From the NCBI RefSeq assembly GCF_003334785.1, contig NZ_QOWV01000002.1: 64,000 bases of DNA; one strand, given 5' to 3'. The DNA is from Escherichia coli. GTDB taxonomy: Bacteria; Pseudomonadota; Gammaproteobacteria; Enterobacterales; Enterobacteriaceae. The stretch's first letter is position 1; each line of letters begins with the position of its first letter. Below are positions 50,101-53,100 of the stretch, piece by piece. The position numbers are program-made.

Positions 50101-53100
50101 AGCGCACTAATAACCTCATCGGCTGCCTCAATAATTTTCAGCGCTTGTTCTCTGGTAATAGTGGTCATTTGTTAATCCTCAAAACTTTATGCCCGGGCGC
50201 AAAAGCACGCGTTTTGTCTTTGCTTATTCGCCACCCGTCTTTACGGGCCTCTTTTGCACAGCCAGCCCATGACGTACCTATATACTCACCGAAGTCTGGC
50301 GTCTTATATTTGCCATCTGTACACTGGAGGCAATCACAATAGAGATGCATGGTGTAACTTGCAGCGATAGCCATATCACTCTCCTTTGATGCGAATGCCA
50401 GCGGCGCGTGGCACATTAACTTCCACGATGCGCACAGTTGGTTTGTACATCTCAATCGCTGTCAGCCAGTCAGCTCCTGTCATGCGCTTTTCCGCATCGC
50501 CATTACCCATCCCACTCAATACCATGACAAGTTCAACCTAAACGTCCAAACATCAGTGGTTCTTGATGGCATTAATGGCCTTACAGTTTATGCGGATAAT
50601 GATGTTGAATTTAATACTGATCATCCTGTCTACAGAGAAAGAGTAGTATTTGGTGTGTTTAATGGGAAAAATAATACATTTAAAGGATTTAACTGGAATA
50701 GTAACTTTACAGACTACAGTATATCTCCTACTGATACTGAGCATAAGATACAAGAACACTGGAAAGGTTTTGTGTTTGAAGGTTGTTCTTATAATAGCGT
50801 AAGGAAAAATAATGTTAATGCCTGCCATGTTTTCGTGCTGGCTGATAACATCAATCTATCAACAAATCTTCAGAATAAAAATATTCAAGTGATTGAAAAC
50901 AAACTTAAATATGTTGTTAATTATTGTTTTCTTTCAAGAGCTTTGGAGTGGTATGTTTTTGACAAGAATGAAGTTTCTTTTCAAGGCAGAAAGTGGCATA
51001 CGTTTGGTGAGGCAGCAGCGCCAACAACACAAACAAAGCATATTCGCATATGCGACAACAAATTTACTGATCAGATTGCTCAGCAAGCATGCATAACACC
51101 AGGACCACATATCGAAAGTGGATTGATCAGTGGAAACTTCTGCAAACGGCATTACGGAATTTTCATTGAGAATGGTAGCACCTCAAATCTTATTATCACT
51201 AATAACACCAGTATTAGTACTGGTGAAAGGGATGATACTGCTCATATTCTTCTTGTTGGTGAAGTCGATGACCAGCCTATAGGTAACTCACCACATTCAA
51301 ACGTTTTAATTTCTAACAATATGTTTCAAGGAGGAGGAGAGTCCATCAGAGAATATAATACTGGAGTTTCTTTACGAACAGGATTCAGAATTATTAACAA
51401 TCAGATGGTTGACTGTAAGCCTCCTGCAATTACAAACCAATCATTTATCGGTCTTGAGTTCATAGGCAACTACCTTGTAGCACCAACAGATTTCCCTGAT
51501 CTGAGATTAGGAGGTCAGCATACAGTCATCAAAGATAACACACTGATTGGTGTAAGAATAAGAGCGAGAGATCTTGGTTATACAGTCATTGATATGAGTG
51601 TTACAGAAAATGCATTTAGGGCTAACTCTTTGGGGGATAGCTATCCAGCACTCATAGACTTCACTGAATTTACAGGATTAGTTGCAAAAGAAAATGATGT
51701 ATCAGCATCTCATTTCACCAATGTTATTGTACTTCCAGATAACTGCAATATTGCTGGGTTTAGATATCTAGGTATTACCGAAGGTCTATTAGACAATCCA
51801 TCAACTTTGTATGGTTCTAAACTACAATGTAAGCTTGGAGATATTGTATATAATAGAGAGCCATCTATATATCAAAATAAACTTTGCTGGACGTGCGTTG
51901 ATTCATCATCAAAAACATTTGGTTCTGTAACCGTAGCAATATAAATAAATGGCCCCATAATCGGGGCCTTATATTTATTCAATAAATTTAATTATTTTGT
52001 TTTTTGCTTTATCCCACACCAAAGCAGCACCAGATTTCGATAGATGAACTGCATCAGAGTATATGAATTGATAATCATTAGTCATCGTTATGCATTTACC
52101 ATCTTTGCAAAGATAATCGTATGGGTCAATAAATAGAACGTTATTATACCCATTTAGTGCACTTCTTATGGCTGAGTTCATTCGTTTGTTGAATGTATCT
52201 TTGTCGTCTGTACTCAAATATCTTGTGCATACTAGCGGTAGGTATGATGGTCTATTGACACATTTTTCTACACCGCCAACACCATCTGTGCCAGGAGGGG
52301 CCCCAAGGATTACCACTTTTTTATTATTTAAAGCAGCTATATTATTTTTAATATTATTGATGCTAAAATTAATAAATTCATTTTCATCATTGAATTTCTG
52401 TTGGTTACCCTGCGGATCACTTACCATTCCTTCATATCCTATCCACCGCATCCCAAAAATAACAGGTACATTAAATTTGTTCGAATAATCAATAGCAAAG
52501 TTCAGTCTTTGCTGGCACTTTGGATCAGGAAGTCCTGCGTAGAACGTTGTATAATTACGCGAGAAAAAACAACCATCATTCAATGATGTAATGAATTTAT
52601 GACCTTGAGAATTTACATCTATTGCATGGGCATATTGCCTTGCAAAGCTGTCACCCATAAGCACAGCTGATACTTTTGATGCCGTCTTATCTCCAATTAT
52701 ATGCGCTCCAGCATAGTACCCATTTCCACCATATTGTTGCAGATGGAACTCCCCTGAATTATTCATTTTTTGTTTAAAGTACTCGTTGACTCGGAAGGAG
52801 TACCCATTATTTTTATATATAATATGAGATACCGATAAAACACTAATAAAAACGATTGAAAAAGAAACTGCCATTTTGTTGATTGAAGATAGATTAATAC
52901 GTCTAAACTTGTTCTCAATAAAATAATAACTCACATAAGCCAGAAAAATAGAAACGGATACTATTGATGCTTTTTCGAGCGTATTGATCGGTCTGAAAAT
53001 GTAATATTTATAGAATACTAAAAGAGGCCAATGTATAAGATATACAGAGTATGAAACTATGCCAATGCTAACAAATAATTTATTTCTTAATAAGTATCCT

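What the first reader, a model, noticed from the sequence alone, without database searches (positions are those of the whole stretch)
50456..50555. Probable deletion scar between the early-region operon and the tailspike-like fragment
Two minus-strand phage ORFs end at 50455 and a plus-strand receptor-binding ORF begins about 100 bp later, with no promoter-like spacing or ribosome-binding site. This looks like the point where the replication, lysis and morphogenesis genes of the ancestral phage were lost.
Basis: inference. Interest (0 to 1): 0.35.

Follow-up and report, generated by a model that had tools for sequence, protein, structure and literature searches.

The report
Deletion joint in a decayed prophage
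This is the exact point (bases 50503-50505) where about 31-34 kb was deleted from a P22/Sf6-like prophage sitting in the E. coli argW tRNA gene, fusing two truncated genes head to head; it is an ordinary scar of prophage decay.

Summary
The window is the E. coli dsdC-argW-yfdC region. It holds a 6,536-bp KplE1/CPS-53-type prophage remnant between two copies of the 16-bp att core ATGGTGTCCCCTGCAG (48912-48927 and 55448-55463).

The interval 50456-50555 is not a non-coding spacer. It is made of two truncated coding sequences joined at 50503-50505:
- On the minus strand, the last 130 nt of an ead/Ea22-like early gene (50376-50505).
- On the plus strand, a tailspike gene from the second base of codon 254 of 733 (50503-51944).

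Homology to Ea22-bearing relatives stops at 50505. Homology to a full-length tailspike (99.3% identical over 50503-50800, strain 2017-02-2CC) starts at 50503. The overlap is the trinucleotide TTA.

In intact relatives with the same gene order (Sf6, vB_EcoP-683R2) the two points lie about 31-34 kb apart. That stretch carries the recombination, immunity, replication, nin, lysis and head genes, and none of it is elsewhere in the window.

Five of 5,426 complete E. coli genomes, all near-identical in this region, carry the same joint, so it is not an assembly artefact. The integrase, TorI excisionase, att sites and an O-antigen acyltransferase survive intact. This is an ordinary finding of low interest.

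The parts
48912..48927 (.). att core copy on the dsdC/torI side (attR of KplE1 nomenclature), ATGGTGTCCCCTGCAG
   Evidence: The empty site in strain BE2-5 overlaps both ends by exactly these 16 bp. It is the reverse complement of the published KplE1 core CTGCAGGGGACACCAT (PMC2951348).
49001..49201 (-). torI, excisionase / recombination directionality factor, intact
   Evidence: PGAP product WP_001163428.1, the same accession as in K-12 JM83. It is 66/66 identical to Sf6 gp18.
49259..49426 (-). 55-aa early (ea-region) gene
   Evidence: Matches PHROG 676 over 1-55 of 55. Annotated as a CDS in LR-64-2.
49527..50168 (-). 213-aa early (ea-region) gene of unknown function
   Evidence: Matches PHROG 60 and 12449. 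Patchy 89-96% nucleotide matches to 683R2, phiV10 and Sf6.
50165..50374 (-). 69-aa early gene; the mechanical ORF up to 50455 over-extends it
   Evidence: Matches PHROG 926 over 1-69 of 69. PGAP gives the same CDS coordinates. Homologous to 683R2 7365-7574.
50376..50505 (-). 3'-terminal remnant (42 codons plus stop) of an ead/Ea22-like gene; about 190 N-terminal codons lost
   Evidence: PGAP pseudogene 'missing N-terminus'. 96.9% identical to the end of phiV10 p48, which is 232 aa. Homology to three relatives stops at 50505.
50503..50505 (.). Deletion joint: the trinucleotide TTA shared by both parental sequences
   Evidence: Three-way alignment; BLAST end points.
50503..51944 (+). Tailspike 3' remnant: part of codon 254 plus codons 255-733; the head-binding domain and about 140 further residues are lost
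   Evidence: Window 50503-54213 is 99.6% identical to strain 2017-02-2CC; the first 298 nt are 99.3% identical. The full-length protein there is 733 aa. Its residues 1-113 match Pfam Head_binding PF09008, and residues 1-117 match the P22/Sf6 tailspike N-domains in the PDB. Frame check.
51951..51968 (.). Bidirectional terminator-like hairpin GGCCCC-ATAATC-GGGGCC between the convergent tailspike and acyltransferase genes
   Evidence: Sf6 has a 'putative terminator for oac gene transcription' annotated at the same position.
51975..53936 (-). 653-aa O-antigen acyltransferase (serotype-conversion moron), intact
   Evidence: Matches PHROG 6705 'O-antigen acetylase' over 13-647, E = 3.7e-152. The same protein accession, WP_021544677.1, is present in 2017-02-2CC.
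54130..55287 (-). intS integrase, intact (385 aa)
   Evidence: PGAP product 'prophage integrase IntS'. 383/385 identical to K-12 IntS and 381/385 to Sf6 Int.
55448..55463 (.). att core copy in the 3' end of argW (attL)
   Evidence: tRNA-Arg(CCT) lies at 55449-55523 on the minus strand.

Best explanation
Bases 50503-50505 are the novel joint left by an internal deletion of about 31-34 kb in a Sf6/HK620/P22-like (Lederbergvirus-type) prophage integrated in argW.

Shown by the data:
- The deletion ran from inside an ead/Ea22-like gene of the leftward early operon to codon 254 of the tailspike gene.
- It removed the rest of the early-left operon, the immunity region, the replication, nin and lysis genes, and all head and DNA-injection genes.
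- The two ends share only the trinucleotide TTA.
- The joint has no function of its own.
- A 6.5-kb remnant survives, holding the IntS/TorI/att recombination module and an O-antigen acyltransferase.

Inferred:
- The mechanism was illegitimate (microhomology-level) recombination, not homologous, site-specific or IS-mediated recombination.
- The two divergent 5'-truncated gene fragments are silent. The early genes have lost their native PL promoter. The tailspike fragment has lost its start, its ribosome-binding site and its particle-attachment domain.
- The event happened once, in the ancestor of a small clonal lineage.
For: Boundaries of the element:
- The empty-site comparison gives a 16-bp core at both ends of a 6,536-bp insert.
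- That core is identical to the published KplE1 core.

Left parent:
- phiV10, YA-1 and Z1323CEC0003 align to the window up to 50505.
- All three then continue as GTCCACT..., unlike the window.

Right parent:
- The full-length tailspike of 2017-02-2CC aligns from 50503 onward at 99.3-99.6% identity.
- Upstream of that point it differs completely from the window.
- An 89%-identical tailspike in IMG/VR contig L012 also starts aligning at exactly 50503.

Both genes are truncated:
- PGAP annotates the Ea22-like fragment as a pseudogene.
- The Head_binding domain, residues 1-113 of the intact tailspike, is absent from the window.

Intact relatives keep the same order and orientation with 31-34 kb in between.

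None of the missing DNA is elsewhere in the 64-kb window.

Nothing marks the joint as anything else:
- No IS element, repeat or RNA family lies at the joint.
- G+C steps from 0.49 to 0.33 at 50500.

The identical joint occurs in five independent complete assemblies whose 10-kb flanks differ from the window by 0-2 substitutions, plus one indel in two of them.
Against: - No single intact progenitor carrying both flanks at near-identity was found. The two parental sequences are inferred from different relatives. The Ea22 side is only 97-98% identical to them, and the only full-length copy of this tailspike sits in another defective element at a different locus.
- Three bases of microhomology are expected by chance in about 5% of random joints, so the mechanistic label is weakly supported.
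- A single joint cannot show whether the loss happened in one step or several.
- The silence of the two fragments is inferred from the absence of consensus signals, not measured.
Confidence: 0.9

Rival explanations
1. Stepwise decay: the region was lost in several successive deletions, and 50503-50505 is only the last joint, which erased the earlier ones.
For: K-12's KplE1, at the same site, carries several internal truncated genes (partial helix-turn-helix gene, yfdM and tail-fibre assembly gene). Strain 2017-02-2CC shows a different partial deletion that kept the immunity and replication genes. Multi-step erosion is therefore common in this family.
Against: Only one joint is visible in the window. 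All retained genes on both sides are collinear with intact relatives and show no further breaks.
Confidence: 0.3
2. Hybrid joint: the two sides come from two different elements. For example, a tailspike-acyltransferase-intS module was imported by recombination and joined illegitimately to a resident KplE1-like early region. The joint would then not be an intra-prophage deletion.
For: The tailspike-acyltransferase module is compositionally distinct (G+C 0.30-0.40). It occurs at 99.6% identity in another element at the torS locus in 2017-02-2CC. The receptor-binding part is also found on a different N-terminal adaptor in L012, so the module is mobile among phages.
Against: The order and orientation of every retained gene, and the two att cores, are exactly those of a single integrated Sf6/683R2-type prophage. 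Low-G+C tailspike and O-antigen modules are normal parts of such phages. An extra recombination event is not needed.
Confidence: 0.07
3. Natural adjacency or an assembly artefact: the genes are neighbours in the intact phage, or the joint is a mis-assembly.
For: None found. PGAP does annotate the tailspike fragment as an ordinary 462-aa 'hypothetical protein'.
Against: Both genes lack their 5' parts. Intact relatives separate them by 31-34 kb. The identical 50-nt joint sequence is present in five independently assembled complete genomes from Ecuador, Japan, Viet Nam and Cambodia.
Confidence: 0.01

Closest known systems
KplE1 (CPS-53) defective prophage of E. coli K-12
   Same: - Integrated in argW between dsdC and yfdC.
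- Identical 16-nt core.
- TorI is the same protein accession, and IntS is 383/385 identical.
- The att-proximal DNA is 97-99% identical (window 48500-49251 and 54099-56000).
- It is defective, with no immunity, replication, lysis or head genes.
- It carries an O-antigen-modifying cargo next to intS.

   Different: - The interior is unrelated: nothing between window 49252 and 54098 matches K-12.
- K-12 keeps 10.2 kb with gtrAB plus a third, unnamed gene in place of the acyltransferase, tail-fibre rather than tailspike remnants, and several internal truncations.
- This element is 6.5 kb with a single joint.
Shigella phage Sf6, with coliphage HK620 and prophage record vB_EcoP-683R2 (Lederbergvirus)
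   Same: - The gene order and orientation around attP are the same: tailspike(+), terminator, O-antigen modification gene(-), int(-), attP core, torI-like xis(-), ea genes including an ead/Ea22-like gene(-).
- The recombination module is 96-97% identical at the nucleotide level.

   Different: - These phages are complete (38-39 kb).
- Their tailspike receptor-binding domains and acetylase or esterase genes are unrelated to the ones here.
- Here the roughly 31-34 kb long arc is missing.
Prophage remnant at the torS locus of E. coli 2017-02-2CC
   Same: It carries the same tailspike-acyltransferase-intS' module at 99.6% identity, and it is also defective through an internal deletion.
   Different: - It sits at a different chromosomal site.
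- Its tailspike is full length (733 aa, with the P22-type head-binding domain).
- Its deletion removed the late genes between the replication genes and the tailspike instead.
- Its intS is cut down to the last 84 nt.

Membership tests
KplE1/CPS-53-type argW prophage remnant | Insertion in the 3' end of argW, bounded by a duplicated 16-nt core CTGCAGGGGACACCAT | tested here: met
   Exact 16-bp copies lie at 48912-48927 and 55448-55463. The empty-site strain BE2-5 has one copy. The core overlaps tRNA-Arg(CCT) at 55449-55523.
KplE1/CPS-53-type argW prophage remnant | IntS integrase next to attL and TorI excisionase next to attR, at opposite ends of the element | tested here: met
   intS is at 54130-55287 and 383/385 identical to K-12 IntS. 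torI is at 49001-49201 and carries the same protein accession as in K-12.
KplE1/CPS-53-type argW prophage remnant | Defective: no repressor, replication, lysis or morphogenesis genes | tested here: met
   Only nine features lie between the cores. The 31 kb of 683R2 that lies between the homologous points has no match anywhere in the window.
KplE1/CPS-53-type argW prophage remnant | Excision competence in vivo (IntS- and TorI-dependent) | not testable with these tools
   The proteins and att arms are conserved at 97-100%, but excision itself needs an experiment.
Lederbergvirus (P22/Sf6/HK620-like) prophage | Order tailspike(+), O-antigen modification gene(-), int(-), attP, xis(-), ea genes(-) | tested here: met
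   Collinear with Sf6 and 683R2.
Lederbergvirus (P22/Sf6/HK620-like) prophage | Tailspike with the P22-type N-terminal head-binding domain (PF09008) | tested here: inconclusive
   That part is deleted in the window. The 99.6%-identical gene in 2017-02-2CC has it. An 89%-identical receptor-binding domain sits on a different N-terminus in L012.
Illegitimate-recombination deletion joint | Each flank is collinear with a different, distant part of intact relatives, and homology is lost abruptly at one position | tested here: met
   Left homology ends at 50505 and right homology starts at 50503.
Illegitimate-recombination deletion joint | Short microhomology at the joint | tested here: inconclusive
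   There are 3 bp (TTA). The chance expectation for 3 bp or more is about 0.05.
IS- or site-specific-recombinase-mediated deletion | An IS end, target-site duplication or recombination site at the joint | tested here: not met
   No transposase or IS is annotated within the element. There are no meaningful direct or inverted repeats at the joint and no extra att core copy.

The most novel reading that the evidence does not exclude
The deletion may not be neutral decay. It may have produced a selected minimal cassette: a still-excisable IntS/TorI/att module carrying an O-antigen acyltransferase. The 5'-truncated tailspike ORF (GTG 50556, 462 aa), or the chimeric 49-aa ORF created across the joint (50376-50525), could be expressed and contribute something, for example a free O-antigen-binding fragment that interferes with superinfecting phages.
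Probability: 0.04. Interest if true: 0.4.

Novelty: new member of a known kind. Interest (0 to 1): 0.12.

Why it matters
The practical value is for annotation.
- The 462-aa 'hypothetical protein' WP_062873411.1 is a 5'-truncated tailspike pseudogene.
- The mechanical ORF reaching 50455 is an over-extension of a 69-aa gene.
- The element is a 6.5-kb KplE1-type remnant, not a phage.

It also adds one cleanly mapped example to a known pattern. Prophages at argW decay by large internal deletions that spare the recombination module and the O-antigen-modifying cargo. It opens no question that was not already testable with K-12's KplE1.

Tried and rejected
- A megablast of the tailspike part against 50,697 phage records found no nucleotide match. 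Only protein-level relatives appeared, at 57% identity or less, in lytic Kagunavirus and Vectrevirus phages. No intact progenitor phage could be named.
- An exact-pattern scan of IMG/VR for the intact tailspike sequence across the breakpoint found nothing.
- A peptide-pattern scan gave 89% and 73% relatives (L012, L013). Of these, L012's tailspike N-terminus does not match the P22-type head-binding domain. Neither locus has upstream DNA matching 683R2. They confirm the right breakpoint but are not progenitors.
- phiV10 was considered as the architectural model and rejected. It shares only mosaic ea-region modules. Its integrase and lysis genes are placed differently and its recombination module is different.
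- YA-1 and Z1323CEC0003 were fetched as intact Ea22 references, but their own Ea22-like genes are also broken. They were used only for the sequence across the breakpoint.
- An Rfam search at E <= 0.1 found only argW. A repeat search at the joint found nothing meaningful. Promoter scans were at or below shuffle expectation.
- Structure prediction of the tailspike was not run, because it would not change the verdict.

Full report
**Context.** The window around the finding is the E. coli emrY-dsdA-dsdX-dsdC / argW-yfdC neighbourhood. It is 100% identical over 6.8 kb to strain LR-64-2.

Strains with an empty site (for example BE2-5) have dsdC directly followed by tRNA-Arg. Aligning that site to the window gives left homology up to 48927 and right homology from 55448, and the two overlap by 16 bp in the empty-site sequence. 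The 16-mer ATGGTGTCCCCTGCAG is present at 48912-48927 and again at 55448-55463. It is the reverse complement of the published 16-nt core of the K-12 defective prophage KplE1/CPS-53 (PMC2951348). The second copy overlaps the 3' end of tRNA-Arg(CCT), which lies at 55449-55523 on the minus strand. The finding therefore lies inside a 6,536-bp argW-integrated element.

**Content of the element.**
- torI (49001-49201, minus strand).
- Three small early genes on the minus strand: 49259-49426, 49527-50168 and 50165-50374.
- A PGAP-annotated pseudogene, 'ead/Ea22-like family protein, missing N-terminus' (locus coordinates equivalent to window 50376-50504, minus strand).
- A 462-aa plus-strand ORF (50556-51944).
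- A 653-aa acyltransferase matching PHROG 'O-antigen acetylase', E = 3.7e-152 (51975-53936, minus strand).
- intS (54130-55287, minus strand).

TorI carries the same protein accession as in K-12 and is 66/66 identical to Sf6 gp18. IntS is 383/385 identical to K-12 IntS.

**Checking the observation.** No plus-strand promoter-like site lies upstream of 50556, and no Shine-Dalgarno-like sequence precedes it.

The interval 50456-50555 is nevertheless coding-derived throughout:
- The ORF '50165..50455' is a 69-aa gene (50165-50374, matching PHROG 926 over its full length) plus a spurious upstream extension.
- 50376-50505 is the Ea22-like 3' remnant.
- 50503-50555 is tailspike sequence in frame with the GTG ORF. 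That frame is open back to a stop at 50355 without any start codon.

**Mapping the joint.**
- Early side: BLAST of 50300-50800 against phiV10, YA-1 and Z1323CEC0003 gives homology (96.6-98.1%) ending at 50505.
- Tailspike side: BLAST against strain 2017-02-2CC gives homology (99.3%) starting at 50503.
- In the base-by-base alignment, all three Ea22 relatives continue after …GCCATTA as GTCCACT…. The 2017-02-2CC tailspike reads …GGGGGTTTA before CCCATCCCACTC….
- The window is …GCCATTA|CCCATCC…, so the trinucleotide TTA (50503-50505) is common to both parents.
- A more distant tailspike (IMG/VR contig L012, 84.6% nucleotide identity) also begins to align at exactly 50503.
- G+C falls from 0.49 to 0.33 at this point.

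**What was cut.**
- The 2017-02-2CC gene encodes 733 aa. Residues 1-113 are the Pfam Head_binding domain (PF09008, E = 5e-65). Residues 1-117 match the N-terminal domains of the Sf6 and P22 tailspikes in the PDB.
- Base 50503 corresponds to the second base of codon 254. The window therefore lacks the particle-attachment domain and about 140 further residues.
- The Ea22-like remnant keeps 42 of about 232 codons, by comparison with phiV10 p48.
- The joint also creates a chimeric 49-aa ORF (50376-50525). Its first seven codons (MVLSGMG) lie on the antisense-tailspike side of the joint, the seventh spanning it. Nothing suggests it is expressed.

**Intact relatives.**
- Sf6 has this order: tailspike (+), terminator, oac (-), int (-), attP core, TorI-like xis (-), genes 19-21 including an ead/Ea22-like gene (-).
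- The prophage record vB_EcoP-683R2 (Lederbergvirus) shows the integrated form. From the excisionase end it reads: small early genes, the 69-aa gene homologue, then a 230-aa gene.
- About 30 kb follow, carrying bet, kil, cIII, N, cI, cro, cII, O, helicase, nin, Q, holin, lysozyme, spanin, terminase, portal, scaffold, capsid and three DNA-transfer proteins. Then come the tailspike (+), an esterase (-) and the integrase (-).
- Projecting the two breakpoints gives about 31.0 kb in 683R2 coordinates (7705 to 38721), with about 50 whole CDS between them. It gives about 34 kb in Sf6 coordinates.
- None of this DNA occurs elsewhere in the window. Neither the 5' 760 nt of the tailspike nor the phiV10 sequence upstream of the Ea22 breakpoint is found there either.

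**Mechanism.**
- No IS element, extra att core, repeat or RNA element lies at the joint.
- The two parental sequences share only 3 bp there. The joint is therefore of the illegitimate-recombination type.
- Three base pairs of overlap are expected by chance in about 5% of joints, so microhomology dependence is suggested rather than shown.
- One step cannot be distinguished from several.

**Population.**
- The identical joint and the whole remnant occur in five of 5,426 complete E. coli genomes, from Ecuador, Japan (two), Viet Nam and Cambodia.
- The four genomes other than LR-64-2 (itself 100% identical to the window) differ from the window by 0-2 substitutions per roughly 10-kb flank and 1-2 substitutions in the remnant. 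Two of them also carry one indel in the right flank.
- This indicates a single event inherited in one lineage and excludes mis-assembly.
- No complete genome and no phage record carries an intact progenitor.

**Consequences (inferred).**
- The early genes and torI have lost the leftward early (PL) promoter region.
- The convergent tailspike and acyltransferase genes are separated by a G+C-rich bidirectional terminator-like hairpin (51951-51968). Read-through from the acyltransferase into the antisense tailspike and on to torI is therefore unlikely.
- The recombination module and the acyltransferase look intact. The remnant may therefore still excise, as KplE1 does in K-12 according to PMC2951348, and may still modify the O antigen. 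Neither was tested.

**Comparison and verdict.**
- The element belongs to the KplE1/CPS-53 kind by every sequence-testable criterion: site, core, IntS, TorI and defectiveness.
- Its interior is unrelated to K-12's, since nothing between 49252 and 54098 matches. It derives from a Sf6/HK620-type phage with a different tailspike and acetylase module.
- The finding is a real, precisely mapped deletion joint. It is biologically ordinary, so interest is low.

Noticed in passing
L003 (NZ_AP027764.1 3058514-3071346); corresponds to window 50503-54213: Strain 2017-02-2CC carries the same tailspike-acyltransferase-intS' module (99.6% identical) in a different defective element. It lies between torT and a C-terminal torS fragment. 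The tailspike there is full length and directly abuts toprim/replication, cII, cro and cI genes, so this is an independent internal deletion at a non-argW site.
   Followed up: partly
window 50556-51944; L012 9605-11848; phage hits H101-H113: The receptor-binding part of the tailspike is modular. It is 57% and about 48-49% identical at the protein level to tail fibre proteins of lytic Kagunavirus and Vectrevirus phages. It is 89% identical to an IMG/VR tailspike whose first ~125 residues do not match the P22-type head-binding domain.
   Followed up: partly
window 50556-51944: RefSeq/PGAP annotates the 5'-truncated tailspike as an intact 462-aa 'hypothetical protein' (WP_062873411.1) with a GTG start and no ribosome-binding site. 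It should be a pseudogene, like the neighbouring Ea22-like fragment.
   Followed up: yes
window 50376-50525 (minus strand): The joint creates a chimeric 49-aa ATG-initiated ORF. Seven codons (MVLSGMG) read from the antisense-tailspike side of the joint, the seventh spanning it, and are fused in frame to the last 42 codons of the Ea22-like gene.
   Followed up: partly
window 51951-51968: A perfect G+C-rich hairpin (GGCCCC-ATAATC-GGGGCC) with T-rich runs on both sides lies between the convergent tailspike and acyltransferase genes. It is a bidirectional terminator candidate, at the same position as the annotated oac terminator of Sf6.
   Followed up: partly
window 50500-54100: The tailspike receptor-binding region and the acyltransferase form a low-G+C block (0.29-0.42), flanked by phage and host DNA at 0.46-0.54. 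This is typical of horizontally exchanged O-antigen-related modules.
   Followed up: no
L004 (E. coli YA-1, NZ_CP137162.1 1436317-1444522): Another prophage encoding the same TorI protein (integration site not checked) has an IS100 insertion splitting a DUF551 gene. Its ead/Ea22-like gene is broken into two pseudogene pieces. This shows a different route of decay in a related prophage.
   Followed up: no
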